A stretch of DNA of 64,000 nt from Escherichia coli (GTDB lineage: Bacteria > Pseudomonadota > Gammaproteobacteria > Enterobacterales > Enterobacteriaceae), in NCBI RefSeq assembly GCF_011045215.1, contig NZ_CP049201.1. The stretch is one strand, 5' to 3'. How positions within the stretch are numbered: the first letter of the stretch is position 1; every line of letters begins with the position of its first letter. Shown one piece after another: positions 1,192-16,857 of the stretch. The translations under genes and the position numbers were made by a program. The notes beneath the pieces were generated by a model. The model worked only from the letters and a program-made list of their open reading frames with translations, was not told the DNA's origin and searched no databases.

Positions 1192-1275
1192 ATCCCCCTT
1201 CACCTAACCCTCTCCTCAAAGGGGAGATGGCAGAGTGAGGGCATCAGACAGTTAAAATTTAAAAAGGATTTCCTA

Positions 1276-2280
1276 ATGACCATCAATTTGAAAAAACGCA
1301 ACTTCCTTAAACTGCTGGACTACACCCCGGCAGAGATCCAGTACCTGATCGATCTCGCGATCAAACTGAAAGCGGCCAAAAAAGCCGGACGAGAAAAACA
1401 GACCTTGGTTGGCAAAAACATTGCCCTGATTTTTGAAAAAACCTCCACCCGTACCCGCTGTGCTTTCGAAGTGGCTGCGTTCGACCAGGGGGCGCAGGTG
1501 ACCTACCTCGGCCCAGGCGGATCGCAAATCGGCCATAAAGAGTCAATGAAAGACACCGCCCGTGTGCTGGGCCGTATGTATGACGGCATCGAATACCGTG
1601 GTTACGGTCAGGCCATCGTTGAGGAGTTGGGCAAATACGCGGGCGTACCGGTGTGGAACGGTCTGACCGACGAATTTCACCCAACCCAAATCCTCGCAGA
1701 TTTGATGACCATGCTGGAACATTCCCCGGGCAAAAAACTGTCGGAACTGAGCTTTGCCTACCTTGGCGACGCACGCAACAACATGGGTAACTCCCTGATG
1801 GTGGGGGCTGCCAAAATGGGGATGGATATCCGTCTTGTAGCCCCAAAATCCTTCTGGCCGGATGTGGTGCTTGTTGAACAGTGCCGTTCCATCGCGGAAG
1901 AGACGGGCGCACGTATCACCCTGACCGATGACGTGGAAGAAGGCGTGTGGGGAACGGATTTCCTCTACACCGATGTTTGGGTCTCCATGGGTGAACCGAA
2001 AGAGGCGTGGACCGAACGCGTCAGCCTGATGAAGCCTTATCAAATCAACGCTGACGTGATGAACGCCACCGGCAACCCGAACGTCAAGTTCATGCACTGC
2101 CTGCCAGCCTTCCACAATGAGCACACCAAAGTGGGCCGAGAAATTGAGATGGCATACGGCCTGAAGGGACTGGAGGTGACGGAAGAGGTCTTCGAATCCC
2201 CTAACTCTATCGTCTTTGATGAAGCAGAAAACCGCATGCATACCATTAAAGCGGTCATGGTGGCGACACTCGGCGACTAA
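1276..2280 (+). CDS. arcB: Ornithine carbamoyltransferase, catabolic type
   Basis: 334 aa; STRTR carbamoyl-phosphate binding motif, HCLP motif; strong similarity to E. coli ArgI recalled from memory; lies inside the ADI operon. Confidence 0.92.
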
Positions 2281-2327
2281 TCACCACCCGGTGCGTCGTA
2301 GGGTGCACCGGGTCTCAGGAGAACATC

Positions 2328-3731
2328 ATGGGTAAGTTCAAATTTCCCTCCGCATATACCATTCTCTTTTTTCTGATTGCCATCGTTGCCGTCCTGACGT
2401 GGATCATTCCAGCCGGGCAGTATCACATGGCAATGAACGAAGCTCTCGGCAAGGAGGTTCCTGTTGCCGGCACCTATGCACACGTAGAGGCCAATCCGCA
2501 GGGACTGATTTCAGTGCTGATGGCCCCAATTGCCGGGTTGTATGATCCAGACTCCGGTCAGGCTAGGGCGATAGACGTTGCGCTGTTTATTCTGATCATC
2601 GGAGGATTCCTCGGGATCGTCACCAAAACCGGGGCCATTGACGCCGGAATCGAGCGCGTCACCACCCGACTACGTGGTCGCGAAGAGTGGATGATCCCGA
2701 TCCTTATGGCGCTGTTTGCTGCTGGCGGTACAATTTACGGCATGGCCGAAGAATCCCTGCCGTTTTATACCCTGCTGGTGCCGGTGATGTTGGCAGCACG
2801 CTTCGACCCTGTGGTAGCCGCCTCCACCGTGCTGCTCGGCGCCGGGATCGGCACGCTCGGTTCCACCATTAACCCTTTCGCGACGGTGATCGCCGCCAAT
2901 GCAGCCGGGATCCCCTTCACCAACGGTATCACCTTGCGTGTGGTGGTGCTTGTCATCGGCTGGATAATCTGCGTGACATGGGTGATGCGCTATGCCCGGA
3001 AAGTTCGCAAGGAGCCGTCTCTCTCCATTATTGCGGATAAACAAGAGGAGAACCTCGCCCACTTCCTCGGCAATAAAAGCGAACAGGCTCTGGAGTTCAC
3101 CCCGGTACGCAAAATTATTCTGGTGATTTTCGCCCTTACCTTCGCGGTCATGATCTACGGCGTGGCGGTGCTGGGTTGGTGGATGGCGGAGATCTCAACG
3201 GTATTTCTGGCCAGCGCAATTATCATCGGCCTGATCGCCCGCATGAGCGAAGAGGAACTGACCTCTACCTTTATCAACGGCGCGCGAGATTTGCTGGGCG
3301 TTGCACTGATTATCGGTATCGCGCGCGGTATCGTAGTGATCATGGATAAAGGTATGATTACCCATACTATTTTGCACTACGCCGAGGGAATGGTTACTGG
3401 ATTATCGACAGTAGCATTCATCAACGTGATGTATTGGCTGGAAGTGGTGCTGTCGTTTCTTGTGCCTTCTTCGTCCGGTCTGGCCGTTCTGACGATGCCG
3501 ATCATGGCACCTCTTGCCGACTTCGCTAACGTCAACCGCGACCTGGTAGTTACGGCTTACCAGTCTGCGTCCGGTATCGTTAACCTGATCACTCCCACCT
3601 CTGCCGTTGTGATGGGCGGACTGGCTATCGCCCACGTGCCTTACGTGCGATATCTGAAATGGGTTGCGCCGCTGCTTGGGATATTAACAGTGGTAATTAT
3701 GGTGGCATTAAGTCTGGGGGCATTGTTGTAA
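2328..3731 (+). CDS. YfcC-family polytopic membrane transporter (putative arginine/ornithine exchanger of the ADI operon)
   Basis: 467 aa, multiple hydrophobic helices, Gly/Ala-rich segments; positioned between OTC and the ArgR-like regulator. Confidence 0.75.
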   Translation: MGKFKFPSAYTILFFLIAIVAVLTWIIPAGQYHMAMNEALGKEVPVAGTYAHVEANPQGLISVLMAPIAGLYDPDSGQARAIDVALFILIIGGFLGIVTKTGAIDAGIERVTTRLRGREEWMIPILMALFAAGGTIYGMAEESLPFYTLLVPVMLAARFDPVVAASTVLLGAGIGTLGSTINPFATVIAANAAGIPFTNGITLRVVVLVIGWIICVTWVMRYARKVRKEPSLSIIADKQEENLAHFLGNKSEQALEFTPVRKIILVIFALTFAVMIYGVAVLGWWMAEISTVFLASAIIIGLIARMSEEELTSTFINGARDLLGVALIIGIARGIVVIMDKGMITHTILHYAEGMVTGLSTVAFINVMYWLEVVLSFLVPSSSGLAVLTMPIMAPLADFANVNRDLVVTAYQSASGIVNLITPTSAVVMGGLAIAHVPYVRYLKWVAPLLGILTVVIMVALSLGALL

Positions 3732-3811
3732 TTTGCCGGATGGCGCTGCCCCTATCCGGTCTACGGAATGGTGTGGTGTCACCGGTTATTTCGAGAACTG
3801 AATATAGGATT

Positions 3812-4291
3812 ATGATGGATTACGAAGATTTCTCTCCCAAAGAGCAACTACAGCTAACGGTCTGCCAACGTCTGATTGCAGAAAAGAGCTATTTTTCCCA
3901 AGAGGAGCTCCGCCGCGACTTACAGGAGCGTGGTTTTGAGACAATCAGCCAGTCCACCGTTTCTCGTCTGCTCAAGTTGTTAGGTGTCATAAAAATTCGA
4001 AATGCCAAAGGGCTAAAAGTCTATTCGCAGAATCCACAGTTGCGTCCGGCTCCTGATGCCGCGCGCACTGTGTCCGAAATGGTGGTGAGCGTTGAGCACA
4101 ATAGAGAATTTATCCTTATCCATACCGTTGCTGGATATGGCCGCGCAGTGGCACGTGTCCTTGATTATCACCAGTTGCCAGAAATTTTAGGCGTGGTGGC
4201 CGGAAGCAGTATCGTCTGGGTCGCTCCTCGGATGGTGAAGCGTGTCGCTCTGGTGCATAAGCAAATTAATTATTTACTAAGAACGTATTAA
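3812..4291 (+). CDS. ArgR-family arginine repressor-like regulator
   Basis: About 159 aa from the ATG at 3812 (the ORF-track start at 3659 is probably too far upstream); resembles ArgR in the N-terminal winged-helix (...SQSTVSRLLKLLGVIKIRNAKG...) and C-terminal oligomerisation region. Confidence 0.78.
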   Translation: MMDYEDFSPKEQLQLTVCQRLIAEKSYFSQEELRRDLQERGFETISQSTVSRLLKLLGVIKIRNAKGLKVYSQNPQLRPAPDAARTVSEMVVSVEHNREFILIHTVAGYGRAVARVLDYHQLPEILGVVAGSSIVWVAPRMVKRVALVHKQINYLLRTY

Positions 4292-4484
4292 TATTCACAA
4301 ATGCCCGCTTGTATTGACTAATACATACATTAAATCGCTTCATTCGCAAAGCGAGTTTCCTATAATGCCTGATAATGTGCCAGGAGGGAGCATAGTCAAG
4401 CGTGTACGATATAACGTCTCACCGCGTCTGAAATCAGACACTGGCTTGGTGTTTTATTCCCGTTGCTTAATCTATTCCTTGGGT

Positions 4485-4508
4485 CCCTCATTTGAGGGGC
4501 TTTTTTTG
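4485..4508 (+). terminator. Intrinsic terminator (GC stem ccctc/gaggg plus T7 run)
   Basis: Hairpin 4485-4498 followed by tttttttg; ends either the arc operon read-through or a short transcript starting near 4370. Confidence 0.5.
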
Positions 4509-4528
4509 CTCGGCATCAGGAGATAAAC

Positions 4529-4678
4529 ATGAATCCGTTTTATCAAAAAATAAATGCCCCTAGCCGCGAAGTGCTGGAGCTCGTTCTAAAAATCGCAGCA
4601 AAAATTGAAAACCATTCCTCAACCATCGCGGCGTTCGTATGCGCCGCCAATGATGCGCCCGAAAACGCGTCAATATGA
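4529..4678 (+). CDS. Small hypothetical ORF (49 aa) whose 3' end lies in a 63-bp repeat
   Basis: ATG at 4529 preceded by AGGAGA; translation MNPFYQKINAPSREVLELVLKIAAKIENHSSTIAAFVCAANDAPENASI; the last 14 codons recur at 4955-5017. Confidence 0.25.
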   Translation: MNPFYQKINAPSREVLELVLKIAAKIENHSSTIAAFVCAANDAPENASI

Positions 4679-5043
4679 GTTCGCCGGAATATTACTCTGC
4701 TGTCGGGAGTTGAACGCCTGACGACAGGAAATGAGCCAGGCCAGCCACCACGCGGGCTGACAGCGAATCAGAACCTGAGTCAGCCCGGAGCCATTCCCGG
4801 GGCTGCACTTCATCACCTGCCACCAGTACCCGTGTCAGTACTTCGCGACCTGACGCAATTATCCGACTCAGTCCTTCAGAACCCGCCTCCGATACCAGCC
4901 TGGCGCTCGCCCCTGCGCAAGCAAAATAAATCAACCATTGTCAGACTGCGATCATTCGTATGCACCGCCGATGACGCGCCCGAAAACGCGTCAATATGAG
5001 TTCGCCGGAATATTACTCAATATGAGTTCGCCGGAATATTACG
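4634..5043. repeat. Direct repeats: 63-bp unit at 4634-4696 and 4955-5017; 26-bp subunit (caatatgagttcgccggaatattac) in three copies at 4671-4696, 4992-5017, 5018-5043
   Basis: Read directly from the sequence; lies between the ADI operon and the cdiI terminator. Confidence 0.8.
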
Positions 5044-5065
5044 CCTAGCTGGGGGTTTTCTGTGC

Positions 5066-5096
5066 ACAAAAAAATCCCGGCATAATGGCCGGGATT
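5066..5096 (-). terminator. Intrinsic terminator of the cdi operon (minus strand)
   Basis: Palindrome atcccggc...gccgggat followed on the minus strand by a T7 run, just downstream of the cdiI stop. Confidence 0.6.
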
Positions 5097-5110
5097 TGCG
5101 AGCTTTCCCA

Positions 5111-5485
5111 CTATTTCTTGATTCCTAAACGGAACATATCAGTTGGGAATAAAGGTTGTATTATCACTTCATCATTAAAAATGAATAATTTGGGCGATAA
5201 AGCTGTTACGTCATAGATATTTTCAGCGATTAATCTTAGATTTGACCTAAAAACTGGAATACTTGCATCATCTACAAAGACAAACATGTCATCGTTTTTT
5301 ACAGAGTTTGCACACAATAGCTCATCAAAACTCTCATAATCAGAATGCCAGATCTCTGACCAAGTAACACTTCCTTTCGCGAGAGGGTACTTATTTAAAA
5401 TGCCCAGAGCCTCCTGCTGAGCCAGCCCCTCTACTATATTAAAATCAGCACTCAGTGCTTCCCGACACTCATCAAATAAAGTCAT
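5111..5485 (-). CDS. cdiI: CdiI immunity protein (cognate to the CdiA-CT encoded at 5494-6246)
   Basis: 124-aa acidic protein starting 5 nt after the cdiA stop codon; position and size typical of cdiI. Confidence 0.75.
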   Translation of the reverse strand: MTLFDECREALSADFNIVEGLAQQEALGILNKYPLAKGSVTWSEIWHSDYESFDELLCANSVKNDDMFVFVDDASIPVFRSNLRLIAENIYDVTALSPKLFIFNDEVIIQPLFPTDMFRLGIKK

Positions 5486-5490
5486 TTGCT

Positions 5491-8400
5491 CTACCTGTTT
5501 AGCTGTTTCAATATTGTTTCAAAAGACTTTTCATTGCCTTCAAAAGGTATGACTTGCTTCACCGCTTTTCCAGGGCCTTTACCCTGCGAGTAATCCCATA
5601 TATTGATGTGTGTGCCTTTTTCAGGATCATAATCAACACGCCAACCAACTTTTCCGTCGCTGGATTGCCGCCCTATGACTTTCCCATTACCAGCGCTGAC
5701 TTCCAAACGTCCGATAACTGGCTTAGAGTCCGCTCCTAAATTACCTACAAGATCCAATGCCTTGTTTCGAGCAGTTTCCCAGTTTTTCTCTGGCTTGAGG
5801 ATTTGTTCAATTTTAGGCTGGGAATTCCCTTTAACCTTACTAATTCCCCCAAATGCTGACGCCGCAGCGCTCGCGACTATTCCCGCCTGAACTTCATCCA
5901 AACCGTATTCTTCTTGGAGTGCTTCCGAGACTTTGTTGGTCGCGACAACCCCTTCAGCCTGCATTTGCTGCGCAAAAGTCGCCGTCAGATCGTAGACCAT
6001 TTTGATCGGGATATCTTCACCCAGAGCACGATCTATTGCCTGCTTCACCGCCAGACTGTCAGTCAGTACATCACCGTATTTCTGCTGGCAGGTTGCCGGG
6101 CTGGCTGCACAGTCACTGATCAGTTGCTTTTGCTGTGCCGTACTCAACTCTTCGTACTTTTTGATAATACCGCCGCAGTCACCGCCTTTCGCCTGACAGG
6201 ACTTCATTTCAGCGGACCAAGCATCTATCTGCTTACTGCTCAGATAGTTATTCTCAACAGTTGTCTTACCTGACTGTGCGCCGGCTACCGCTGAAGCCCC
6301 CGAGTCTCCCACCAGACCACCGGCCAGGCCGGCAGCAACCGTTGCCAGTGTCGAGACCGTCTGCTTCTCTGTCTCGCTCAGTTCACTCACCGGCTTACCG
6401 TACATCTGTGTGGCTATCATTCCCACCACCTCGCCGGTGGCTGCACCTGCAGCACCGGCAAGGGCATTCTTACCCTGTGCCAGAGACAGGGCGGCATTCA
6501 CTACTGCATGAGCTGCCACACGCCCCGCACCGTCCGGGGTGGTCTGTTTGATAATTTCAGCAATATACGGCGCTGCACCACCTGCCAGGGCTGCACTCAG
6601 ATTACCGCCGGCCAGTCCCTGTACCGCTGCCGTTGCGGCCTGTATCGCCTGCTGGTATTTGCCTCCCGTTCCAAAACCGGAGGCTGCCATACCGTTATTG
6701 TAGGCCCGCTGTGCCACATCCTGTTCCGTGTACGGTTTTCCTGCTGCCTCAAGCTCTGCGCGGGCCTGATTCAGTGCTGCCGGGTCCCGCTTCGCTTTCT
6801 CACCGGCTATCTGTCCTTCCGTTCTGGCAATATCTGCCACCTGGTTACCAATCTCACCAATGAGTTGCGCCTGCTGCAACCGCTGCTGCTCTTTTTCCCT
6901 GTCAAAGATGGGGGACAGCGTCTGGTTTGCATGCGCAACGTCACGGTTCAGGTCTGCCACATCCTGTTTCTGGCTCTGTGTATCCCGGATAGTGATATTC
7001 CCGGCAGACACAGCCGACTGCGTGGTACTGTCCGCATGGCCTTCATGATTTGCACCGACCAGCAGATTGTTTGCCATGTTCCCCAGGAAATTTCCGGCAA
7101 CACTGCCACCGGTACTGAGCCCTGCACTCTGATGTTCCGTTTTAAAGTCAGCCCGGTTTTCAGTGTCACTGAAGCCCAGTGTGCCGGTATCCAGCCTGTT
7201 TTTATCTGCCGTTGCCGTGGACGCAATCACCGCACCGTTCAGTTGCGTATGCTGTCCGGTGGTGACATCAAACCCGCCCCTGCCGGCAAAAATCCCCGTC
7301 TGCTCCTGTACACTGTCGTAGTTACTGTGCATTTTATCCCGGCTGAGGTTCACACTCGCCGAACCGCTCATGGACCCGAAAGTGAAGCTGCCTCCGGCGC
7401 TGGCATTCTGCTGCTTACTGTCATAACGGTCACTGTCCTGCTCACTGGTCAGTGTCAGATGACGACCGGCATCCACTTTCACCGTTTCACCGCCAGCCTG
7501 CGCGCCGGTAAGCGTGGTGTCCCGCCCGCTGATAATGGTCAGCCGGTTTCCCGCATCCACCGTGGTTTCTGTATGGGTGGTACCGTTGCCTTTTTCACTG
7601 CCCTTACCCTGGTTTGCGCTGGCTGACAGACTGAAACCAGGCCCTCCGGGCCCCACACCGATACCGACACCCACGCTGCCACCACTGGATGTGTTCTTTC
7701 CTTCCAGCTTTGACGTGTTTTCTGCTGATACCAGATTCACGTCACGGTTTGCCTGCAGCAGAACGTTGTTCCCGGCCTTTATCTGACCGCCCTGTATCGT
7801 CAGGTCACCATCCACGCCCTTCACGCCGGAGCCGGTGGCCTGAATACTGAGGTTATTACCTGCGGTCAGTGTACTGCCCTTCGCCACCGTCTGCTCTGAC
7901 TGCTGTTCTGATTTCGAAGACTGGCTGCCGTAAGAGAGGCTGATACCCACGGTATTGTTATTCTCTTTCTGGTTGCCCTGTGCTTCTGCCAGTCGTCCGG
8001 CCTGCACGGCCTGAGCCCCCGAGAGCGCGGCCTTCACCCCCTGCAGGGCTTCAAGCCGGCTGTTTCCGGCAGATTTCGCCGCCTGTACGGTCTCCACCGT
8101 CGTGTTCAGGGCGCTGCCCGCTGTGCCGGACAGGGCAAGCGTCAGACCGGAGGTTTTCTGCTCCACCGTATGTGTCTGCACATGCCGGTCAGTGGCGGCG
8201 GTAATGCTGACCTCCTTACCACTGAGTGCCATGTCCCTGCCGGCAATCAGGTCAGAGCCGTTGACGGTCAACCGGTTACCTGCCTGAAGGGAAACATCAC
8301 CGTGAACACTCCCCACCGTGCTGCCTTTCTGCGTGGTGTCTGTTGCGGTGTCCGTGACCTTCAGACTCTGGCTGCCCACGCTGAATCCCACACCTCCGGA

Positions 8401-11400
8401 GCTCATCAGTCCGGATTTTTTCTCCTGTTTCAGGTGTGTTTCACGGTTGCTTTCTGTCAGCGTTCCGATACTCAGGTTATTTCCGGCAGCCAGGGAGACA
8501 CGGTTATCCCCGGCCACACTGCTGCCCGTGACGTTCAGATTATGTCCGGCACCGATACTGACCGTATCCCCGTTCAGTTCACTGCCCGTCATGGTCCGGC
8601 GGTCAGTGACATCATGCGTGGTAGTGGTGGTTTTCGATAACATCCCGCTGTTGCCGGTCACTTTATGGTATTCATCCAGCGAGCGGGTATTCTGTGCACC
8701 GGTCAGCGTCACGTCATGACCCGCCATCAGGGCCAGGCCTTTCTGAGCTGACAGCGATGCCGCCTGTGACGTCATATCCCGTCCGGCGGTCAGCGTGACA
8801 TCACCGTTACCGGCAAGTGTGCTGCCCGTATTCTGTGTGACGCCCTGCGACAGACGATTATTTTTATCCCAGGTAATATTGTCCTGCGCGGATGTGGTCA
8901 CCGTGGAAAGCGTCATATCCCTGCCGGCACTGAGTTGTGTCAGGCTGTCCTTACCCTGATTCACCACCGTTGCCGCCGTCAGATTCATATCCCGTCCGGC
9001 CTGCAGCACCAGTCTTCCCTGGTCGTTCTGCACATACACGCCGGCCACACTGTCGATACTGGTACGTTCAAAATGGTTCTGCCCGGCGTCGCGCTGTGCC
9101 GTACGGGTGGTGGTGGTCAGACTGATATCCCGTCCGGCCATCGCCAGCAGGCTGTCCGTGGCCTGCAGCAGCCCGCCGGTACTGTTAATATCCGTCCGGG
9201 CCGTCAGGCTGACATTTGCTCCCTGAATGGTGCCGGCCTGGTTGTGAATGTTTTCTGCACTGAGCTGCACGGCCTGCTTCCCGGCCAGTTTACCGCTGTT
9301 AAACAGGTCACCATCCAGCTTCATCACCATGTCCCTGCCGGCAATCAGCGCACCGGCACTGTTCACATCACCGGGTTTTACACGGGCATACACCTGAGGT
9401 ACCTGAACCGTCTGCGTGCTGCCGTCCGGCAGTGTCACCGTGGTGTTAACCAGCCAGACAATATCACCGGTCAGTAACGCCATCTGCTCAGCAGTCAGCG
9501 CCACACCTGGTGTCAGGTTGTATTGCTTACCAAATGCAATACCCGCATCCATTAACGCCTTAAACTGCTCTTCATCATTACTGTATCCGTCCAGGTACCG
9601 TTGCCCGGTCAGAGCGACAACCTGCTCACGAATCAGACGCTGTTCGTAAAAACCATCCCCCAGGCGTTTGAGCATGTTATCCCCGTTCTGAGAAAACGCC
9701 TTCTGCATGTAATCACTGCCCAGCCACGTCTTCTGGTTCGTAAAACGCGGGTCCGTTTCAACCAGATATGGCACATTCACTGCCGGATTTGTTTTAAACA
9801 GGCTGCTGTCCGGCAGACGGGTATCCGGCCCGGCAACATGGATACTGCCCTGAGGTGCGCTGACTTCAAACTGCTGCCCCGGCAACAGAATGACCGGTTC
9901 ACCGGCTGACACCACCGGGCGAAGCGGTATCCGGTCAGTAACGGCTACTGTCGCATCCACATTTCCGGTCAGTCCTGTCTGTACATCCGTTCCCTGTGGC
10001 TTCAGGGGAGAAAGCGTGACCTGGCTGCCCTGAACCTGTCCGTGGCTGGTGAGCTCTCCCGGCTTCAGCGTGATGGTCTGAATGACGGGGGGCGGCTCGT
10101 AAGGGGAAATTCTTTCCCCCTGCCTGTCATTTTTATTTTTTCTTTTTATCCGGTAATAATATGTGGATGTCCCTTTATCAGTAACATGGCGCTCTCCGCT
10201 GACACTGACGTTTTCCACATCACCGGCCTGCATATCCAGCAGACCACCTGCAACCACCTGGCTCTTGTCATTAAGCAGTTTGTCTGCCACAACCGTCATG
10301 CCGGCACCGGACAGTATTTTCCCCGGGTCGGAGTCTTTTACCCGGGTTTCCTCCACGGTACGGGTGTATTCATATTTTGTGAACCGGTCGTTGTTATGTC
10401 CGGTATCATCCGGCGTGTTCAGGTTCAGCAGTCCATCAGAGGAGTTGTTATCAATGAACACCCCCTCATCTTTTGCATTCCAGCGGACATCTGACCCGCG
10501 ATGCTGATACTCAGTCACCTTTTCCGTGGAGACCACCACGCGCTCCGTGGTGAAATGGTCATTGACGTTATTGATTTGCCCGGCACTCAGTGTCAGGGAA
10601 CCGGCGGCTTCAATCGTGGCACTGTGATTATTCAGTACACCGGCTTTCCCCGTGGCGGCGCCATTCGCATCCAGCATGCCACCGATATGCATATCACCTG
10701 CACTGTAAATCAGGCTGTGCGTCCGGTTATTCAGGGTCTGTACCCCCAGGTCCACACGCTCACGTCCGGCCAGCGTCGCCGCCACGCCATTTTCATCCAG
10801 ATTATTAAATGTGGCAGCGCTGACACCAACAGCATCGCCGTAGATTCGCCCGGTACCGGAATTCGTCAGGGTGTTCGCCTGAAGATGCGTATATTTCCCG
10901 TCAATCAGCCCACGGTTCAGCAGTGTGTCCGTCACGTTAAGCCAGGTCTGCCCGGCACTGATTTCACCTTTCTCTGTGTTTTCAAGGCGGATGCTGTTCA
11001 GGTCAAGCCGGCTGCCTGCCAGCAGGCTGCCGGTATTAGAGACATCGCCATTAACGGAAAGCGTAAGGTTTCCGTTTGCAATGGTCTGACCACTGTTACT
11101 GAACGCTGTGTTACTTTTCAGCGTTATATCGCCCGGCGAAAGCAGTTTCCCGTCACCACCAAGCTGACCGACATCCACAGAGACTGACTGCCCGGCCTTA
11201 ACCACGCCGTCACGGTTCGAAAACGCCAGCTGACGGCCACTGACAGACAATGTCGCGCCGGAAGAGAGCACGCCATCATTATTACTGAGCGTCCTGTCTG
11301 CCATAACCGTAAGCGCCCTGTCTGCCAGAATACTGCCCTCCTGGTTATCAAGGTCCTGCGTCGTGATGTGTATTGTCTGCGCTTCCAGCCCCTGGCCGGT

Positions 11401-14400
11401 ATTCTGCGTGTGGCGATTGATAAACTGCAGGGCGTTCAGCGTAATGGCAGAACCACTGCGAATCAGACCAGAGACGTTGTCCACAACGCCCCGTACACTG
11501 TCGAACAGAATGTCGCCCACAGACTGTATCTGTCCGTGGCTGTTCTGCAGGCCTCCCGTATGCAGACGGAGTTCACCTTCACTGACCAGCCGGCCACCCT
11601 CACGGTTATCCAGCGAGGTGGTGCTCAGGTCAGCTGTCGTTTTCGCCCCCACGGTCCCGCCCCGGTTATCCATTGCTCCGGTACTGACAGTCAGTTCCTG
11701 CAGGCTGTTCAGCGTACCCCCTCTGTTATCCAGCGTCCGGCCTGCGCTATTAATGCTGATGCCTTTCCCCTGAATAAGACCGGACTGATTGTTCAGCGCC
11801 AGACTGTTCCGGCCGGGCAGACCGGTCGCCACAATCTGACCATTCGCCACCACCTGACCGGATGTATTGTTAACCACGCCTGCAGTCAGGGACAGCGCAT
11901 CTCCCGACAAAAGCACACCGGCAGTGCTGTCCAGTGTGCCGGCATTCAGCGTCATCGGGCCCTGACTGATAACCCCGCCCCGGTCACCACTGTTACGGTT
12001 GCTCAGTGTGTCAGCACGGAGATTCAGTGTGGCACCGCTCTGTATCAGACCACCTGCATCATTGCTGATATCCGTCGAGGAAAGGGTCAGTGACTGCTGT
12101 GCCACCAGTCTGCCGCCCTGATTATCAGAGCGGGTGACATCCAGCCTGCTGTTACCGTTGCTGACCACCGTCCCCTGCTGATTTTCCAGCACATTCAGGT
12201 GCGCATTCAGGTCCCCGCCGGCGGCAAGCGTCCCTTCCTGATTACTGACATCGCCACCACTCAGCAACATATCCGTCCCGGCCTTCAGTGCGCCTTTCTG
12301 GTTCATCAGCGTACCTGACGATATCTGTAATGACGCCTGACTCCCCAGCACGCCCTGACGGTTATCGAGCGTTCCGGCGTTCAGGGTCATATCCTTCTGA
12401 CCCGCCATAAATCCCTGCTGGTTATTCAGCATACCGGCCCGTACTGTCAGGGTACCGGCGCTGCTGATACCACCCCGTGTTTTCGTGTTCCGGTTACTGA
12501 GAACCCCGTCCTGTACATCCAGCGTCATGTCACTGCCGGACTGAATCAGACCATCATCAGAGACCAGTTCGCTGCCTGACACAGACAGCGTTTTCTGTGA
12601 AAGCAGTCTGCCGGACGTATTATCCAGCGCACCATCCAGCGTCACGGACAGCCCGTCAGACACCACCGTACCCTGGTGGTTATTCAGACTCCCTGCCGAA
12701 ATATCCAGCCTGCCGGCGGACTCCATTCGTCCCTCAGTATTGCTGACAGCCTGCTGTGTTTTTATCCTGCCCGTTCCGGCAGCAGCTGAAATCAGTCCGT
12801 TGTCGTTATTCAGTGCCTGTGTATTAATCAGGATGTCACGGCTGGCAATCAGACTTCCCTGCTGGTTATCCACGGCGCCGGTTGTCCTCACCTGCAGACT
12901 ACCTGACTGCGCCGCCTGCACTTTCCCCCTGCGATTATCAAGGCTCAGTGCATCCAGGCGCACCGCGCCATTTGCCGCAAGCAGCCCTTCCCGGTTATCC
13001 ACACCTCCCGGCAGGTTCAGTGAAAAATCCCCTGTTCCCGTCTGAATCAGTTTACCCCTGTGGTTTGACAGGCTCTGTGCTGATATCTGCAGTGTGTCGG
13101 CATTTATCGTGCCGTCATTATTGCTGAACTGCCCGGCAGTCCGGGCGGAAAGCGTACCGGCACTCAGTTGCGCATTTTGCGTGAACAGATTTCCGCTGCC
13201 TGCATCCAGCTCAGTATGTTGTCCCTGTATCCGGCTGTTGCTTAAATCCAGCCCCTGCCCCTTCAGTTGCATGTCCCCACCGGACAGAACCTGTCCGTGT
13301 GCCGCCAGTTCGCCGGTGGTACTGACAGTCAGGTTGCCCGCTGCCGCCAGACGTCCGTCATCTTTCACCCCGGCGGCCAGCAGACTCCGCTCACCGCCGG
13401 TCAGACGCGCTGTCTGAATCCGGGTGTTGCGACGTGATGCCACAGAGCCTGTATGGGTGAATACACCATCACTCTGTATCTGCGTATCCTGCCCCGCATA
13501 AACAGAACCACTGTTATGCAGCTCCCGGGTTGTCACCAGATGCACATCCGTTTTCGCACTGATACTGCCACTGTTTTCAATTCGTCCGTCAGCCGTCAGG
13601 GTAACCGCCCCTGCCTGCGCACCAATATGACCGGCGTTACGAACACCCACCCCCGTTTCCGTACCGACAAGGCGAATTTTTCCGGCATACATTCCACCAA
13701 GGCTGGACACATCCAGCGCCACCTGTGGCTGCGAAGAGGCATCAGCGGCTTTTTTCTCAGTCTGCCCGTGTGCAATATCCACATTGTTACGTCCGGTGGT
13801 CACTTTCAGGTCCTGCGCCCAGATACCCGCATTAATCTTCACAGACCGGGCAATGATATCGGTATAATCCGTGCGCGAGGCATCCATCCCTTTGCCCGTA
13901 ATCTGAATCTCACCACGTTCAACACTGAATCCGGTCAGACTGCCGTTTTTCATCTGAGGCTGCCCCGTGGTCAGCGTGGCCCGGTTCGCATTAATAAAAC
14001 CGCACCCGTCGCAACTGATGCCGGCCGGGTTCGCAATCACCACCTGCGCCTTTTTCCCGGCAACCTCAACAAAACCGTTCAACTGGCTGGGATTGCGACT
14101 GTTCACTTCATTAAGAATGATTCGGGCCTCTCCCTTCGCCAGCCACGGGTTACCGGCAACCATGCCGCCCAGTTGGGTCTGCACATTTTTATGCGAGTTA
14201 TTCAGAATGACACCCTGATGACTGACATCAAACTGACTGTAAGTATTGTGCGATACCCCACCTGCAGAAGGTGTCTGGATATTGACCTGAGGAATGCCGC
14301 TGGCTGTCTGCGTAATCGTGGGCTGCTGATGCCCCGGTGCGCCATGGTCTGCGACAATGCCTGCAGCACTGACAGAATGCACCATCCCCGAGGCCAGCCA

Positions 14401-14565
14401 CAGGGAGAATGCAAGCGATGTGACACGGCAGATACGTTGCCTGCGTGGATATCCTGTACGGGAGGAGGGTGATGCACCGGCGCGACCGGAACGGGCAATA
14501 TCTGCCACCACCATCAGCATTCCCCGGGCTTTGTTAAAAATAATGCGGTAACAATTTTTGTTCAT
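5491..14565 (-). CDS. cdiA: CdiA contact-dependent inhibition exoprotein (TpsA/filamentous-haemagglutinin family), 3024 aa
   Basis: N-terminal extended signal peptide MNKNCYRIIFNKARGMLMVVADIA; TPS domain; long Gly/Thr/Asn/Ser-rich FHA-type repeats; VENN motif at codons 6247-6258; 251-aa variable C-terminal domain. Confidence 0.95.
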   Translation of the reverse strand: MNKNCYRIIFNKARGMLMVVADIARSGRAGASPSSRTGYPRRQRICRVTSLAFSLWLASGMVHSVSAAGIVADHGAPGHQQPTITQTASGIPQVNIQTPSAGGVSHNTYSQFDVSHQGVILNNSHKNVQTQLGGMVAGNPWLAKGEARIILNEVNSRNPSQLNGFVEVAGKKAQVVIANPAGISCDGCGFINANRATLTTGQPQMKNGSLTGFSVERGEIQITGKGMDASRTDYTDIIARSVKINAGIWAQDLKVTTGRNNVDIAHGQTEKKAADASSQPQVALDVSSLGGMYAGKIRLVGTETGVGVRNAGHIGAQAGAVTLTADGRIENSGSISAKTDVHLVTTRELHNSGSVYAGQDTQIQSDGVFTHTGSVASRRNTRIQTARLTGGERSLLAAGVKDDGRLAAAGNLTVSTTGELAAHGQVLSGGDMQLKGQGLDLSNSRIQGQHTELDAGSGNLFTQNAQLSAGTLSARTAGQFSNNDGTINADTLQISAQSLSNHRGKLIQTGTGDFSLNLPGGVDNREGLLAANGAVRLDALSLDNRRGKVQAAQSGSLQVRTTGAVDNQQGSLIASRDILINTQALNNDNGLISAAAGTGRIKTQQAVSNTEGRMESAGRLDISAGSLNNHQGTVVSDGLSVTLDGALDNTSGRLLSQKTLSVSGSELVSDDGLIQSGSDMTLDVQDGVLSNRNTKTRGGISSAGTLTVRAGMLNNQQGFMAGQKDMTLNAGTLDNRQGVLGSQASLQISSGTLMNQKGALKAGTDMLLSGGDVSNQEGTLAAGGDLNAHLNVLENQQGTVVSNGNSRLDVTRSDNQGGRLVAQQSLTLSSTDISNDAGGLIQSGATLNLRADTLSNRNSGDRGGVISQGPMTLNAGTLDSTAGVLLSGDALSLTAGVVNNTSGQVVANGQIVATGLPGRNSLALNNQSGLIQGKGISINSAGRTLDNRGGTLNSLQELTVSTGAMDNRGGTVGAKTTADLSTTSLDNREGGRLVSEGELRLHTGGLQNSHGQIQSVGDILFDSVRGVVDNVSGLIRSGSAITLNALQFINRHTQNTGQGLEAQTIHITTQDLDNQEGSILADRALTVMADRTLSNNDGVLSSGATLSVSGRQLAFSNRDGVVKAGQSVSVDVGQLGGDGKLLSPGDITLKSNTAFSNSGQTIANGNLTLSVNGDVSNTGSLLAGSRLDLNSIRLENTEKGEISAGQTWLNVTDTLLNRGLIDGKYTHLQANTLTNSGTGRIYGDAVGVSAATFNNLDENGVAATLAGRERVDLGVQTLNNRTHSLIYSAGDMHIGGMLDANGAATGKAGVLNNHSATIEAAGSLTLSAGQINNVNDHFTTERVVVSTEKVTEYQHRGSDVRWNAKDEGVFIDNNSSDGLLNLNTPDDTGHNNDRFTKYEYTRTVEETRVKDSDPGKILSGAGMTVVADKLLNDKSQVVAGGLLDMQAGDVENVSVSGERHVTDKGTSTYYYRIKRKNKNDRQGERISPYEPPPVIQTITLKPGELTSHGQVQGSQVTLSPLKPQGTDVQTGLTGNVDATVAVTDRIPLRPVVSAGEPVILLPGQQFEVSAPQGSIHVAGPDTRLPDSSLFKTNPAVNVPYLVETDPRFTNQKTWLGSDYMQKAFSQNGDNMLKRLGDGFYEQRLIREQVVALTGQRYLDGYSNDEEQFKALMDAGIAFGKQYNLTPGVALTAEQMALLTGDIVWLVNTTVTLPDGSTQTVQVPQVYARVKPGDVNSAGALIAGRDMVMKLDGDLFNSGKLAGKQAVQLSAENIHNQAGTIQGANVSLTARTDINSTGGLLQATDSLLAMAGRDISLTTTTRTAQRDAGQNHFERTSIDSVAGVYVQNDQGRLVLQAGRDMNLTAATVVNQGKDSLTQLSAGRDMTLSTVTTSAQDNITWDKNNRLSQGVTQNTGSTLAGNGDVTLTAGRDMTSQAASLSAQKGLALMAGHDVTLTGAQNTRSLDEYHKVTGNSGMLSKTTTTTHDVTDRRTMTGSELNGDTVSIGAGHNLNVTGSSVAGDNRVSLAAGNNLSIGTLTESNRETHLKQEKKSGLMSSGGVGFSVGSQSLKVTDTATDTTQKGSTVGSVHGDVSLQAGNRLTVNGSDLIAGRDMALSGKEVSITAATDRHVQTHTVEQKTSGLTLALSGTAGSALNTTVETVQAAKSAGNSRLEALQGVKAALSGAQAVQAGRLAEAQGNQKENNNTVGISLSYGSQSSKSEQQSEQTVAKGSTLTAGNNLSIQATGSGVKGVDGDLTIQGGQIKAGNNVLLQANRDVNLVSAENTSKLEGKNTSSGGSVGVGIGVGPGGPGFSLSASANQGKGSEKGNGTTHTETTVDAGNRLTIISGRDTTLTGAQAGGETVKVDAGRHLTLTSEQDSDRYDSKQQNASAGGSFTFGSMSGSASVNLSRDKMHSNYDSVQEQTGIFAGRGGFDVTTGQHTQLNGAVIASTATADKNRLDTGTLGFSDTENRADFKTEHQSAGLSTGGSVAGNFLGNMANNLLVGANHEGHADSTTQSAVSAGNITIRDTQSQKQDVADLNRDVAHANQTLSPIFDREKEQQRLQQAQLIGEIGNQVADIARTEGQIAGEKAKRDPAALNQARAELEAAGKPYTEQDVAQRAYNNGMAASGFGTGGKYQQAIQAATAAVQGLAGGNLSAALAGGAAPYIAEIIKQTTPDGAGRVAAHAVVNAALSLAQGKNALAGAAGAATGEVVGMIATQMYGKPVSELSETEKQTVSTLATVAAGLAGGLVGDSGASAVAGAQSGKTTVENNYLSSKQIDAWSAEMKSCQAKGGDCGGIIKKYEELSTAQQKQLISDCAASPATCQQKYGDVLTDSLAVKQAIDRALGEDIPIKMVYDLTATFAQQMQAEGVVATNKVSEALQEEYGLDEVQAGIVASAAASAFGGISKVKGNSQPKIEQILKPEKNWETARNKALDLVGNLGADSKPVIGRLEVSAGNGKVIGRQSSDGKVGWRVDYDPEKGTHINIWDYSQGKGPGKAVKQVIPFEGNEKSFETILKQLNR
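5494..6258 (-). other. VENN motif plus CdiA-CT polymorphic toxin domain (251 aa)
   Basis: gttgagaataac (VENN) encoded on the minus strand at 6247-6258; Cys-rich segment (SCQAKGGDCGG...DCAASPATCQQ) right after VENN; distinct C-terminal domain ...GWRVDYDPEKGTHINIWDYSQGKG... Confidence 0.8.
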
Positions 14566-14580: not shown

Positions 14581-15108
14581 TTATCTCTCCGGCACATCCA
14601 CAGCAAGCGGGTGCTGCACACGCCACTGGCGCGCCTCTTCACGACTGACCTGTGCACCCCGGAAATTCATCACCCGCAACCCGGTCTGCTGCCCACGGTG
14701 GTACAGCGAACGCCAGCACAGACGGGGAAAAATATCCTGCCGGACAAGACGACTCATATCCGGGGTATGTCCAAAAGGGGCAATCCAGTCACAGACCCAC
14801 ATCCGGTCGCCGCTGTTCCAGTCCGACTGAGGCATGAGAATTGCCGGCTGCGTAAGATAACGCGCCTCTGCCTCCGGGCTGAGCCAGGCCTGGCTCATGA
14901 AGAAAACCGGTCGCCCCTGCTCTGTTGCCACCACATACTGTCGGTGCTTAATCACCGGCAGCAGCAGGTCCGGCAGGGTATGCAGTGGCGCATCACGATG
15001 CAGGGGGGAGTGCATCCACAACCAGACGGCCGCCCCCAGGACTTCCGCCTCATTGACCGGCTCACCGGAATACAGGGGACTCAGAACGTCATATTTCCCG
15101 TTACGCAT
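14581..15108 (-). CDS. cdiC: CdiC, HlyC/TAAT-family lysine acyltransferase
   Basis: 175 aa; WLWMHSPLHRD ... HRQYVV ... WNSGDRMWVCDWIAPFGH closely parallel the HlyC motifs (WLWASSPLHRN ... NQYVLL ... WTSGDRKWFIDWIAPFGD, recalled from memory); sits between cdiB and cdiA. Confidence 0.85.
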   Translation of the reverse strand: MRNGKYDVLSPLYSGEPVNEAEVLGAAVWLWMHSPLHRDAPLHTLPDLLLPVIKHRQYVVATEQGRPVFFMSQAWLSPEAEARYLTQPAILMPQSDWNSGDRMWVCDWIAPFGHTPDMSRLVRQDIFPRLCWRSLYHRGQQTGLRVMNFRGAQVSREEARQWRVQHPLAVDVPER

Positions 15109-15117: not shown

Positions 15118-16857
15118 TCAGAAATCCCGGAACAGATTAAAACCGGCTGTCACATCACTCGTCATAAAACCCGCCGGCTTTGAAAACGGACGACCGATGA
15201 AAACGTCATAATCCGTACTGAACAGTTGCCCCCTCAGCCCCACAACACCACCAGCCAGATGACGTCCCACCAGGTATTCACTGCCGGCTCCCCCCACCTC
15301 GCCGTAATCCATTCCCAGATATAACTCCTGCTCCGGCAGTGGCGTACGCCAGGCCAGGTCGTTGCGGATATACCAGCCGTTACTGGCATTCAGCGTTCGC
15401 TCCCCGTCAAAACCACGAACCGTCCAGCGGTTACCGATGGCAAACTGTTCCTGTGGGGTCAGCGGGGTATTGCTCAGCTGGCGCTGATACCGGAAGGAAT
15501 AACTGAAGGGCTGCCCTGCAAGGGTAAAGGGCAGATTAAAGGATGCATTCAACTGCAGGATCTTACTGAGCGCCGTTGCCTCACCGAACGTTTCTTCCGG
15601 CGCCGGCTGTGCACCAAACCAGCGGGTTCCCCGTTGCCAGCTGACACCAGCATCCAGTGTGGCCTGAGAAATATAATGACGGTGCTGCAGCCCAAGTCGC
15701 CAGGCCGCTGTCTGCCGGCGCTGCACCTGGATTTCCGTATCATTAATGTAGTTACGCGACCTGCGGGCCTGAACATCGTAGGTCAGCACCGTTTTCTGCG
15801 TCCCGTTACGGTGCAGTACCCGGCTCAGCTGCATACCCAGATTCTGACTCTCGCCACTGTACTGGTAATCCTCAACCGCACCAGCTACCGTCTGATGGTA
15901 ATCGTAATCACTGGCGGTGACGGAAAACTGCCAGTAGCCGAAAGGCACAGAGTAATGGGCCGTGTAGTTTTTACTGCCCTTACCCCCGTAATGTGGAAAA
16001 TTACGGGTGGCAGAAACATACAGCAGGTCACTCAGGGAAAAAGGATTATCCAGAGAAAATGTTATACCACCGAGATAACGCCCTGTGCTGCGGGTACCTG
16101 AATCATCAAGCGAAAACCCCAGTCGCCAGTATTTGTCCTGTTTGCGGGTAATAAGAATGTCACTTTCCCCTGGCTGCTCACCGGGTACAATTTCCATATC
16201 AGCCTGCACACCCGGCAGTCGTTGCATATTCTCCAGCCCCTGCTCAATGTCCCGTAAATCCAGCAGAGAACCTTCGTGTGCCGGGAATGAGGAATACAAC
16301 TGAATATAGTCATCACTGTCCGGTGTCAGACGCACATGTCGCACAACACCGGGAATAACAACCAGCCGGAGGATACCGCTTTTTAAATCCTGCGAAGGTG
16401 CCAGAACACGGGTGGTGACATAACCATGATCGACCAGACGGTTCTGCAATGTACTCATCAGCAGATTAATTCCTTTCGCCCCCAGGCAATGCCCGACCGC
16501 CCCGTTGGCGATTTTTTGTAAAGGCAGCCAGTGTGGTAACGCATCAGCCCCCTCCAGTTCCGTCTGTTTAATCTGAAAACAGGGCGTTTCAACAGGAAAA
16601 TTAATCTTACGGGCAAAAGAGCCAGGTGCAGAAAGGCGAACATCAGGGGCTGAAGGCGTCAGTTGTTGCTCAAGGGCTTCCTGACGCTGCTGCTGAATGA
16701 TAAATGCATTATCTCCGCTACGCCGGACATCCGCGGCCTGAAGAGATAAAGGCGATAATAAAACAGACATCAGTGTCAGTGACAGCAAGGACGGACAGCG
16801 CCGGAATACGCTTTGTTCCTCAGCCCTCTCGTTCCTGCAACATAATTTTCCAGTCAA
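15118..16857 (-). CDS. cdiB: CdiB outer-membrane TpsB transporter (ShlB/FhaC/HecB family)
   Basis: 579 aa; signal peptide; POTRA-like N-terminal region and beta-barrel C-terminus ending in an aromatic residue; immediately upstream of cdiC-cdiA. Confidence 0.9.

What the first reader, a model, noticed from the sequence alone, without database searches (positions are those of the whole stretch)
5111..6258. CdiA-CT/CdiI toxin-immunity pair of unassigned fold
The 251 residues after VENN contain a Cys-rich N-terminal subdomain (resembling the cytoplasm-entry domains of other CdiA-CTs) and a C-terminal domain (...GWRVDYDPEKGTHINIWDYSQGKGPGK...) that I cannot place in a known toxin family from sequence alone. 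The cognate 124-aa immunity protein is strongly acidic, which fits neutralisation of a basic nuclease-type toxin. The activity (DNase, tRNase, rRNase or other) is not determinable here.
Basis: inference. Interest (0 to 1): 0.7.

Follow-up and report, generated by a model that had tools for sequence, protein, structure and literature searches.

The report
Known E. coli CDI toxin-immunity pair
This is a genuine contact-dependent growth inhibition toxin and its immunity protein in E. coli, but the pair was crystallised in 2017 (PDB 5T86); only its biochemical activity, probably an RNase, is still unpublished.

Summary
A 3024-aa CdiA (5491-14565, minus strand) has VENN at residues 2770-2773 followed by 251 residues. 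A 124-aa acidic CdiI (5111-5485) starts 5 nt after the cdiA stop.

The "unassigned fold" reading is out of date.
- The last 106 residues of CdiA are 100% identical to PDB 5T86 chain A (CDI complex, E. coli A0 34/86). CdiI is 121/124 identical to chain I.
- CdiI belongs to Pfam PF24172 (E 6.6e-34).
- The toxin has no Pfam hit, but a profile of its homologues aligns to Ntox47 proteins (hhalign 98.5%). Ntox47 is the predicted BECR RNase family typified by Salmonella Rhs2.
- At least 450 cluster representatives carry this toxin domain, on CdiA, Rhs, LXG and HINT carriers. A Brevibacillus copy is still followed by a PF24172 gene.

The Cys-rich N-terminal part is a modular, all-helical entry domain (Pfam DUF6862), joined to at least seven toxin types. 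Its inner-membrane receptor is probably MetI, but this is unproven.

Most likely mechanism: an Asp/His/Arg/Lys RNase that blocks translation and is neutralised by CdiI. Already known; low to moderate interest.

The parts
5491..6258 (-). cdiA-CT: VENN plus 251 residues plus the stop codon (CdiA residues 2770-3024)
   Evidence: Translation and coordinates. DNA identity to another E. coli cdi locus is about 100% up to VENN and falls to about 0.55-0.65 just upstream of it.
6247..6258 (-). VENN motif, the boundary between the conserved CdiA body and the variable CT
   Evidence: Single occurrence in CdiA. It is the recombination breakpoint. Related fragments carry PF04829, PT-VENN.
5830..6246 (-). 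Cytoplasm-entry domain (CT residues 5-143), with four invariant Cys (CT 21, 28, 50, 57)
   Evidence: Homologues at 73-99% identity are fused to different toxins. Pfam DUF6862 matches 12/17 members. The AF2 model is all-alpha with 7 helices, pLDDT 63. It is 46% identical and colinear with a second subtype that carries Endonuclea_NS_2.
5494..5811 (-). Toxin domain (CT residues 150-255). Conserved polar residues: E151, E161, R164, N165, R197, R207, D209, D211, K214, H217, N219, D222, K227
5111..5485 (-). cdiI immunity gene (124 aa, pI 4.33), starting 5 nt after the cdiA stop
   Evidence: 121/124 identical to PDB 5T86 chain I. Pfam PF24172, E 6.6e-34. All 120 listed homologues (of 171 found) carry PF24172.
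5072..5097 (-). Intrinsic-terminator-like hairpin with a T-run, 14 nt after the cdiI stop
   Evidence: 10-bp stem with 6 GC pairs, followed by TTTTTGT.
6259..14565 (-). Body of cdiA (residues 1-2769): TPS domain, FHA repeats, receptor-binding region, pre-toxin region
   Evidence: ORF and translation. The protein is WP_164475831.1 of E. coli. A Tyr/Lys-rich motif YYYRIKRKNK lies at residue 1469.
14581..15108 (-). cdiC, an HlyC-type lysine acyltransferase lying between cdiB and cdiA
   Evidence: Pfam PF02794, E 4.6e-32. Annotated 'toxin-activating lysine-acyltransferase' in related genomes.
15118..16857 (-). cdiB, the two-partner-secretion outer-membrane transporter (579 aa)
   Evidence: ORF. 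The homologous gene is annotated as ShlB/FhaC/HecB family in related genomes.

Best explanation
The region is the variable 3' cassette of an intact E. coli cdiB-cdiC-cdiA-cdiI locus. It encodes the same CdiA-CT toxin / CdiI immunity pair that was crystallised as PDB 5T86 (E. coli A0 34/86).

Proposed mechanism, step by step:
1. CdiB exports CdiA. CdiC probably lipidates the receptor-binding region, and the effector binds the LPS core of a neighbouring cell. This is inferred from class IV systems.
2. The CT is released at VENN in the target periplasm. This is inferred from work on other CdiA-CTs.
3. The all-helical entry domain (CT 5-143), with two predicted disulfides, carries the toxin across the inner membrane by using a specific membrane protein. 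That protein is most likely the methionine permease MetI. This is inferred and unproven.
4. The 106-residue basic toxin domain is a sister clade of Ntox47. It most likely acts as a metal-independent RNase on tRNA or rRNA and so stops translation, possibly working on or with EF-Tu as its relative Rhs2 appears to. The likely active surface is the conserved cluster R207/D209/D211/K214/H217/N219, with R164/N165/R197. This is inferred.
5. In the producer, acidic CdiI (PF24172) binds the toxin 1:1 and blocks it. Binding is shown by the crystal complex of the identical toxin with a 121/124-identical CdiI. Occlusion of the active site is inferred.
For: Identity:
- The toxin domain is 100% identical to 5T86_A and CdiI is 121/124 identical to 5T86_I.
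- CdiI matches PF24172 at E 6.6e-34.

Cassette behaviour:
- The CT, cdiI and downstream flank are about 100% identical to E. coli mip270_05, which has a different 3289-aa CdiA. Identity collapses exactly at VENN.
- GC content falls from about 0.6 upstream of VENN to 0.37 in cdiI.
- The module is present in 122 of 5426 complete E. coli genomes.

Toxin family:
- 450 cluster representatives match at E<=1e-3, nearly all at the extreme C-terminus of longer proteins.
- Carriers include CdiA, Rhs, LXG, pre-toxin TG and HINT proteins in Proteobacteria and Firmicutes.
- A Brevibacillus RHS-associated copy is directly followed by a PF24172 gene whose product is 27% identical to CdiI, E 3e-8.

RNase inference:
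- hhalign of the family profile against a PF15540 (Ntox47) protein gives probability 98.5%, E 1.9e-15.
- Ntox47 is typified by Salmonella rhs2 and was predicted to be a BECR RNase (PMC3482391).
- The Rhs2 preprint reports that D192A (equivalent to CdiA D209) and H204A abolish toxicity, and that Rhs2 co-purifies with EF-Tu (10.64898/2026.05.10.723254).
- D209, D211, H217, R207, K214 and N219 are conserved in 94-99% of 125 homologues.
- The toxin has pI 9.2 and CdiI has pI 4.3.

Entry domain:
- It is joined to 5 toxin clusters in species-representative genomes, plus PF13930 and PF15542 toxins elsewhere.
- The four Cys are invariant.
- Bartelli 2022 Table S1 lists an E. coli CdiA with a 5T86-type toxin under the MetI-dependent entry family 1, alongside Endonuclea_NS_2 and DUF4258 toxins. 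Those toxin types are found on the 46%-identical second subtype.

Class IV context:
- cdiC is an HlyC-type acyltransferase.
- In class IV systems CdiC acylates Lys1467 and the receptor is the LPS core (PMC8510554).
- A Tyr/Lys-rich motif lies at residue 1469 of the window's CdiA.
Against: - No enzymatic activity has been published for this toxin.
- The toxin and all 55 tested homologues fail the Pfam Ntox47 HMM, even at E<=10.
- A D-x-D...H cluster could equally bind a metal, as in a DNase.
- EF-Tu binding was shown only for Rhs2, which is about 33% identical in the aligned region.
- The neighbouring gene that presumably encodes the immunity protein of an Ntox47 toxin shows no sequence similarity to the CdiI profile.
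- Table S1 also lists a 5T86-type toxin under entry family 18, whose receptor is unknown and which has Lonsdalea and Photorhabdus members. The MetI assignment is therefore uncertain.
Confidence: 0.6

Rival explanations
1. It is a metal-dependent DNase. The conserved acidic and His residues (D209, D211, H217, N219, D222) coordinate a divalent cation, and the toxin degrades target-cell DNA.
For: A D-x-D plus His/Asn cluster is conserved in 93-99% of homologues. Many CdiA-CTs that share this entry domain are DNases, for example Endonuclea_NS_2. No activity data exist.
Confidence: 0.12
2. It is a translation inhibitor that is not a nuclease. The toxin binds or covalently modifies EF-Tu or another translation factor rather than cutting RNA.
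For: The Rhs2 toxin domain forms a SEC-stable complex with EF-Tu, and no RNA cleavage has been shown for it. The fold has no nuclease neighbour in the PDB.
Against: EF-Tu binding is also typical of true CDI tRNases, according to the preprint's discussion. The basic surface and the conserved Asp/His/Arg/Lys set fit RNase chemistry. No cofactor-binding motif is evident.
Confidence: 0.12
3. One reading: a toxin of an unassigned fold and family that cannot be placed.
For: There is no Pfam or NCBIfam hit for the toxin domain. It is listed as 'unknown' in Bartelli 2022 Table S1. It is a structural singleton in the PDB apart from its own entry.
Against: The fold is experimentally determined (5T86). 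The immunity protein has a Pfam family named after it. Profile comparison places the toxin next to Ntox47.
Confidence: 0.05
4. The locus is a decaying remnant that no longer delivers toxin, as in E. coli O157:H7.
For: In O157:H7 and other strains the homologous cdiBCAI locus carries frameshifted cdiA and truncated cdiB. Truncated copies of the cassette exist in several genomes.
Against: In this window cdiB (579 aa), cdiC (175 aa), cdiA (3024 aa) and cdiI (124 aa) are all uninterrupted ORFs, followed by a terminator.
Confidence: 0.08

Closest known systems
CdiA-CT/CdiI complex of E. coli A0 34/86 (PDB 5T86, released 2017, structural genomics, no associated paper)
   Same: The toxin domain is 106/106 identical and CdiI is 121/124 identical. 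The predicted and solved folds agree.
   Different: CdiI differs at three positions (W46R, C58S, V70A relative to the PDB chain). Here the cassette sits on a 3024-aa CdiA in a cdiBCAI locus. In many other E. coli it sits on a 3289-aa CdiA of another class.
Salmonella Typhimurium Rhs2-SciX (Ntox47, Pfam PF15540), a T6SS effector-immunity pair
   Same: The toxin domains are remotely homologous (hhalign 98.5% to an Ntox47 protein). They share the motif SYEQARNKAL...R-x-[DE]-Y-D...G-x-H-I-N. D192 of Rhs2 corresponds to CdiA D209. The preprint reports structural similarity of both toxin and immunity protein to 5T86.
   Different: Delivery is by T6SS/Rhs rather than CDI. The window toxin fails the PF15540 HMM. 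The neighbouring gene that presumably encodes the immunity protein of an Ntox47 toxin has no detectable sequence similarity to the CdiI family. EF-Tu binding and the mutational data exist only for Rhs2.
MetI-dependent cytoplasm-entry domain (CdiA-CT of E. coli STEC_MHI813; entry family 1 of Bartelli et al. 2022)
   Same: The N-terminal region has two Cys pairs followed by helices. From my own recollection, Bartelli et al. 2019 describe two disulfides plus a C-terminal helical bundle. Family 1 is listed with a 5T86-type toxin in E. coli, and with Endonuclea_NS_2 and DUF4258 toxins.
   Different: I could not obtain the MHI813 sequence. The window domain is only 46% identical to the E. coli Endonuclea_NS_2-linked subtype. 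A second family (18, receptor unknown) is also listed with a 5T86-type toxin.
Class IV CdiA (CdiA-STEC4 of E. coli STEC_O31), cdiBCAI loci
   Same: The gene order is cdiB-cdiC-cdiA-cdiI with an HlyC-type acyltransferase. A Tyr/Lys-rich motif lies near residue 1467-1478 (PMC8510554).
   Different: CdiA-STEC4 carries an Ntox25 membrane-depolarising toxin, whereas this CdiA carries the 5T86-type toxin. I did not align the receptor-binding domain to STEC4.

Membership tests
CDI CdiA-CT/CdiI cassette | VENN (PT-VENN) motif separating the conserved CdiA body from a variable C-terminal region | tested here: met
   There is a single VENN at residues 2770-2773. Nucleotide identity to another cdi locus is about 100% downstream of VENN and about 0.55-0.65 upstream. 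Related fragments carry PF04829.
CDI CdiA-CT/CdiI cassette | Small immunity gene immediately downstream of cdiA that binds the toxin | tested here: met
   cdiI starts 5 nt after the cdiA stop. Its product is 121/124 identical to the chain co-crystallised with the toxin in 5T86.
CDI CdiA-CT/CdiI cassette | Linked CdiB two-partner-secretion transporter and a filamentous CdiA | tested here: met
   A 579-aa ORF lies at 15118-16857. Its counterparts are annotated ShlB/FhaC/HecB. CdiA is 3024 aa and is named as a hemagglutinin-repeat protein.
CDI CdiA-CT/CdiI cassette | Growth inhibition of neighbouring cells, blocked by the cognate CdiI | not testable with these tools
   This needs co-culture competition or controlled expression.
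5T86-type toxin domain (no Pfam family) | Sequence and fold identity with PDB 5T86 chain A | tested here: met
Pfam PF24172 CdiI_ImmP (CdiI immunity protein EcoliA0-like) | Significant full-length match to the family HMM | tested here: met
   E 6.6e-34, residues 1-121 against model positions 1-129 of 129.
Ntox47 (Pfam PF15540) | Match to the PF15540 HMM | tested here: not met
   There is no hit even at E<=10 for the window toxin or for any of 55 homologues.
Ntox47 (Pfam PF15540) | Detectable homology to bona fide Ntox47 proteins and shared conserved residues | tested here: met
   hhalign probability 98.5%, E 1.9e-15 over 88 columns against a PF15540 protein. The two share YEQARNKAL, R-x-[DE]-Y-D and G-x-H-I-N. 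This makes it a sister clade rather than an HMM-level member.
[quoted passage not shown] | Structural similarity to solved BECR nucleases | tested here: inconclusive
[quoted passage not shown] | Conserved acid / His / basic catalytic residues and RNA cleavage | tested here: inconclusive
   D209, D211, H217, R207, K214 and R197 are conserved in 92-99% of homologues. RNA cleavage itself cannot be tested with these tools.
MetI-dependent cytoplasm-entry domain (entry family 1) | Sequence membership in the family and MetI-dependent import | tested here: inconclusive
   Table S1 of PMC9424206 lists an E. coli CdiA with a 5T86 toxin in family 1 and another in family 18. The window domain is 46% identical, with all four Cys conserved, to the subtype linked to the family-1 toxin types. 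No reference sequence was available, and MetI dependence cannot be tested here.
Class IV cdiBCAI system | cdiC TAAT-family acyltransferase between cdiB and cdiA, and an LPS-core-binding receptor domain with an acylated Lys near 1467 | tested here: met
   Only the gene-order and motif parts were tested. cdiC matches PF02794 at E 4.6e-32. YYYRIKRKNK lies at residue 1469, which fits the description in PMC8510554. LPS binding and acylation cannot be tested here.

The most novel reading that the evidence does not exclude
Probability: 0.15. Interest if true: 0.6.

Novelty: already known. Interest (0 to 1): 0.28.

Why it matters
For a scan that looks for new biology this item is ordinary, because the exact toxin and a near-identical CdiI have been in the PDB since 2017 and the immunity family is in Pfam.

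Its remaining value is as a pointer. This is a very widespread toxin domain, with at least 450 clusters at 50% identity across CdiA, Rhs, LXG and HINT carriers. Its structure is solved, yet its biochemical activity, substrate and import receptor have never been published.

The link made here, 5T86-type to Ntox47/Rhs2, gives a concrete and cheap experimental plan: D209A and H217A variants, an EF-Tu pull-down, RNA analysis, and metI-deleted targets.

The window also holds an intact copy of a class IV cdiBCAI locus that is pseudogenised in E. coli O157:H7. That makes it a usable source for functional work.

Tried and rejected
Searches that found nothing:
- Pfam and NCBIfam scans of the toxin domain gave no hit.
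- A profile of the toxin family against PDB sequences found only 5T86.
- tblastn of the toxin against 50,697 phage records found nothing. I ran it because some homologues are named 'ribonuclease YokI/YxiD' and I recalled that yokI lies in the SPbeta prophage. I treat those names as inherited from the LXG backbone, not as evidence of RNase activity. I read the RefSeq product name 'contact-dependent inhibition effector tRNA nuclease' the same way. It labels members of different lengths in a 90% cluster of 8532 CdiA sequences, so I take it to follow the CdiA backbone rather than the CT.

Fold searches:

Attempts to assign the entry domain:
- I tried to locate WP_001081264.1 (E. coli EC1738, listed under family 1) among annotated genomes and in the cluster listing. 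It was not found.
- Bartelli 2019 and Willett 2015 are not held in the paper library.
- A genome-contig scan gave 42 loci, but none came from the reference strains named in Table S1.
- I tried to label the other toxins fused to this entry domain by PDB sequence search, looking for 5T87 or colicin E3/ECL types. There were no hits.

Immunity comparison:
- BLASTP and hhalign of the CdiI family against the presumed immunity protein encoded next to an Ntox47 toxin showed no similarity.

Idea rejected:
- A beta-beta-alpha-Me/HNH reading of the 'H-I-N' motif. The His lies on the second strand of the hairpin with no following helix in the right place, and no HNH fold was hit.
Full report

Yes, exactly as described. 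The minus strand carries a 3024-aa ORF (5491..14565) and, 5 nt after its stop, a 124-aa ORF (5111..5485). VENN occurs once, at residues 2770-2773 (codons 6247-6258), and 251 residues follow it. The finding's span of 5111-6258 is therefore VENN through the end of cdiI.

The CT has four Cys at positions 21, 28, 50 and 57 (V of VENN = 1), and it contains the quoted GWRVDYDPEKGTHINIWDY motif. CdiI has pI 4.33 and the C-terminal toxin domain has pI 9.22. A 10-bp hairpin followed by a T-run lies 14 nt past cdiI.

The host is E. coli. The CdiA is WP_164475831.1/QIF14235.1, and the exact CdiI sequence is on 275 public contigs.

**2. What it is**

The decisive result is that the pair is already a solved structure.
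- The last 106 residues of CdiA are 100% identical to PDB 5T86 chain A ('CdiA toxin', E 2.8e-67).
- CdiI is 121/124 identical to chain I (E 8.3e-77).
- 5T86 is the 'CDI complex from E. coli A0 34/86', released 2017.
- CdiI matches Pfam PF24172, 'CdiI immunity protein EcoliA0-like', at E 6.6e-34.

**3. Cassette behaviour**

The same CT and cdiI are found in 122 of 5426 complete E. coli genomes. In strain mip270_05 the cassette and its downstream flank are about 100% identical to the window, from about 4320 up to VENN. Identity then falls to 0.55-0.65 immediately upstream. The reason is that the cassette there sits on a different, 3289-aa CdiA with no cdiC.

GC content falls from about 0.6 in the pre-toxin region to 0.44-0.49 in the toxin and 0.37 in cdiI. 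This is the standard signature of a CDI toxin/immunity module exchanged at VENN.

**4. The locus**

Between cdiB (15118-16857) and cdiA lies a 175-aa HlyC-family acyltransferase (PF02794, E 4.6e-32). This gives the cdiBCAI order of class IV systems. In those systems the receptor is the LPS core, and CdiC acylates Lys1467 of the receptor-binding domain (PMC8510554). The window CdiA has a Tyr/Lys-rich YYYRIKRKNK at residue 1469.

In O157:H7 and several other strains the same locus is pseudogenised. Here all four genes are intact.

**5. The toxin family**

An exhaustive HMMER search found 450 cluster representatives at E<=1e-3, of which 185 are at E<=1e-10. Among the 150 listed hits, 107 carry a complete copy of the domain at the extreme C-terminus of proteins up to 1822 aa long.

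Named or domain-annotated carriers include CdiA/filamentous haemagglutinins, RHS proteins, LXG/T7SS toxins, pre-toxin TG proteins and HINT proteins. They occur in Enterobacterales, Pasteurellaceae, Snodgrassella, Aeromonas, Bacillus, Brevibacillus, Paenibacillus and Clostridia.

In Brevibacillus, a 55%-identical RHS-associated copy is directly followed by a 125-aa PF24172 gene. Its product is 27% identical to the window CdiI, E 3e-8. The toxin-immunity pairing is therefore ancient and independent of the delivery system.

Residues that are nearly invariant over 125 sequences are E151, E161, R164, N165, R197, R207, D209, D211, K214, H217, N219, D222 and K227. R207/D209/D211 alternate along strand b4, and H217/N219 alternate along the neighbouring strand b5. 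They should therefore line one face of the sheet. This is an inference from the secondary structure.

**6. Relationship to known toxin families**

Pfam and NCBIfam give nothing for the toxin. The weakest hits of the profile search, however, were proteins carrying PF15540 (Ntox47). hhalign of the family profile against one of them gives probability 98.5%, E 1.9e-15 over 88 columns. The two share the motifs YEQARNKAL, R-x-[DE]-Y-D and G-x-H-I-N.

Ntox47 was defined by Zhang et al. 2012, typified by Salmonella rhs2, and predicted to be a BECR-fold RNase (PMC3482391). A 2026 preprint on Rhs2-SciX reports the following (10.64898/2026.05.10.723254):
- Rhs2 D192 corresponds to CdiA D209, which is exactly my numbering.
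- D192A and H204A abolish toxicity.
- The Rhs2 toxin co-purifies with EF-Tu.
- No mechanistic publication accompanies 5T86.

Table S1 of Bartelli et al. 2022 likewise lists the 5T86 toxin type as 'unknown'.

**7. A caveat on 'BECR'**

The topology (a helix packed on an antiparallel sheet) is compatible with BECR. The assignment nevertheless rests on prediction, not on measured structural similarity. I record it as inconclusive.

**8. The N-terminal domain**

Residues 5-143 of the CT behave as an independent module.
- Homologues at 73-99% identity occur in Serratia, Photorhabdus, Yersinia ruckeri, Edwardsiella, Enterobacter, Lonsdalea, Pantoea, Erwinia and others.
- They are joined at the same point (around GGISKAGK) to five unrelated toxin clusters in species-representative genomes. 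PF13930 and PF15542 toxins are also found on it in metagenome proteins.
- The four Cys are invariant.
- The Cys region matches Pfam DUF6862 in 12/17 members.
- AlphaFold2 predicts seven helices at low confidence, pLDDT 63. This fits the dynamic, helical, disulfide-stabilised entry domains described for CDI toxins (PMC9424206).

Which inner-membrane protein it uses is not settled. Table S1 lists a 5T86-type toxin under family 1 (MetI; E. coli EC1738) and under family 18 (receptor unknown; S. flexneri 1235-66). A second subtype is 46% identical, colinear, and has the same Cys pattern. It is linked in E. coli and Photorhabdus to Endonuclea_NS_2 and DUF4258-like toxins, which are the toxin types listed for family 1. 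I therefore favour MetI, at roughly 60%. I could not obtain a reference sequence to prove it.

**9. Most likely mechanism**

Shown:
- The toxin and CdiI form a complex (crystal structure of the identical toxin with a 121/124-identical CdiI).
- The cassette is modular and widespread.
- The toxin-immunity linkage is conserved across phyla.

Inferred:
- Class IV delivery through the LPS core, with CdiC lipidation.
- Release of the CT at VENN.
- Entry-domain-mediated import, probably through MetI.
- RNase action on tRNA or rRNA, possibly EF-Tu-associated, using the D209/D211/H217/R207/K214 surface.
- Neutralisation by CdiI covering that surface.

Rivals are a metal-dependent DNase (0.12) and a non-nucleolytic translation inhibitor (0.12).

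**10. Verdict**

It is a real CdiA-CT/CdiI pair with an entry domain and an acidic immunity protein, and its activity is still unknown. It is not of unassigned fold, because it is PDB 5T86. It has a Pfam immunity family and a detectable relationship to Ntox47.

Novelty: already known. Interest is low to moderate. It lies in the fact that a very common toxin domain with a solved structure still lacks a published activity, and that the intact locus here, together with the Ntox47/Rhs2 link, makes that question directly testable.

Noticed in passing
window 14581-15108 (-): A 175-aa HlyC-family lysine acyltransferase (PF02794, E 4.6e-32) lies between cdiB and cdiA. The locus is therefore a class IV-type cdiBCAI system. 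CdiA carries a Tyr/Lys-rich YYYRIKRKNK at residue 1469, near the acylated Lys1467 described for CdiA-STEC4.
   Followed up: partly
window 5111-16857, compared with L007 (E. coli O157:H7 17B6-2) and L002 (F2_407_2_2): The same cdiBCAI locus is pseudogenised in O157:H7 and other strains, with cdiA split into fragments and cdiB truncated. It is fully intact in this window. The window's full-length CdiA is the only member of its cluster at 90% identity.
   Followed up: partly
window about 4320-6258, compared with L001 (E. coli mip270_05): The CT, cdiI and the downstream arc-gene flank are about 100% identical to a strain whose cdiA body (3289 aa, no cdiC) is only about 55-65% identical. The breakpoint is exactly at VENN. 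Two different delivery backbones therefore sit on the same cassette at the same chromosomal site.
   Followed up: yes
window 4634-4697, 4955-5018 and 4981-5044: A 64-nt direct repeat (95% identical, 321 nt apart) lies downstream of cdiI. In addition, there is a 26-nt tandem duplication (TCAATATGAGTTCGCCGGAATATTAC x2) just before the terminator. Its function is unknown.
   Followed up: no
window 250-4526 (+): The ORFs next to the cdi locus correspond to the carbamate kinase, ornithine carbamoyltransferase, YfcC-family and arginine-repressor genes, and to a 'pyrBI leader peptide'-like ORF, as annotated in L001. This is an arginine deiminase-pathway island.
   Followed up: no
window 17000-41000: The rest of the window matches E. 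coli genomic-island DNA (integrase, YfjI, ABC transporter, beta-ketoacyl synthase) at 97-98% identity. Only one complete genome covers more than 80% of this stretch.
   Followed up: no
L050 2501-3442 (Brevibacillus sp. VP): An RHS-associated orphan toxin, 55% identical to the window toxin domain, is directly followed by a PF24172 immunity gene. The toxin-immunity pair has moved between Gram-negative CDI systems and Gram-positive Rhs systems.
   Followed up: yes
L012 (Serratia ureilytica), L026 (Lonsdalea quercina), protein P0038: Several copies of the 5T86-type toxin are frameshifted or truncated part-way through the toxin domain, while keeping the entry domain. These are decaying orphan cassettes.
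   Followed up: no
L001 4602-6097 (E. coli mip270_05): This is an orphan CdiA-CT. It has a 46%-identical variant of the same four-Cys entry domain fused to an Endonuclea_NS_2-type nuclease, plus a small downstream ORF. It lies among IS66/IS110 elements about 7 kb from the main cdi locus.
   Followed up: partly
E. coli RefSeq annotations (hits H1, H66-H73): CdiA proteins that carry this CT are named 'contact-dependent inhibition effector tRNA nuclease'. I read the name as following the CdiA backbone, because it labels members of different lengths in a 90% cluster of 8532 sequences. If so, it could mislead, since this CT has no demonstrated tRNase activity.
   Followed up: partly
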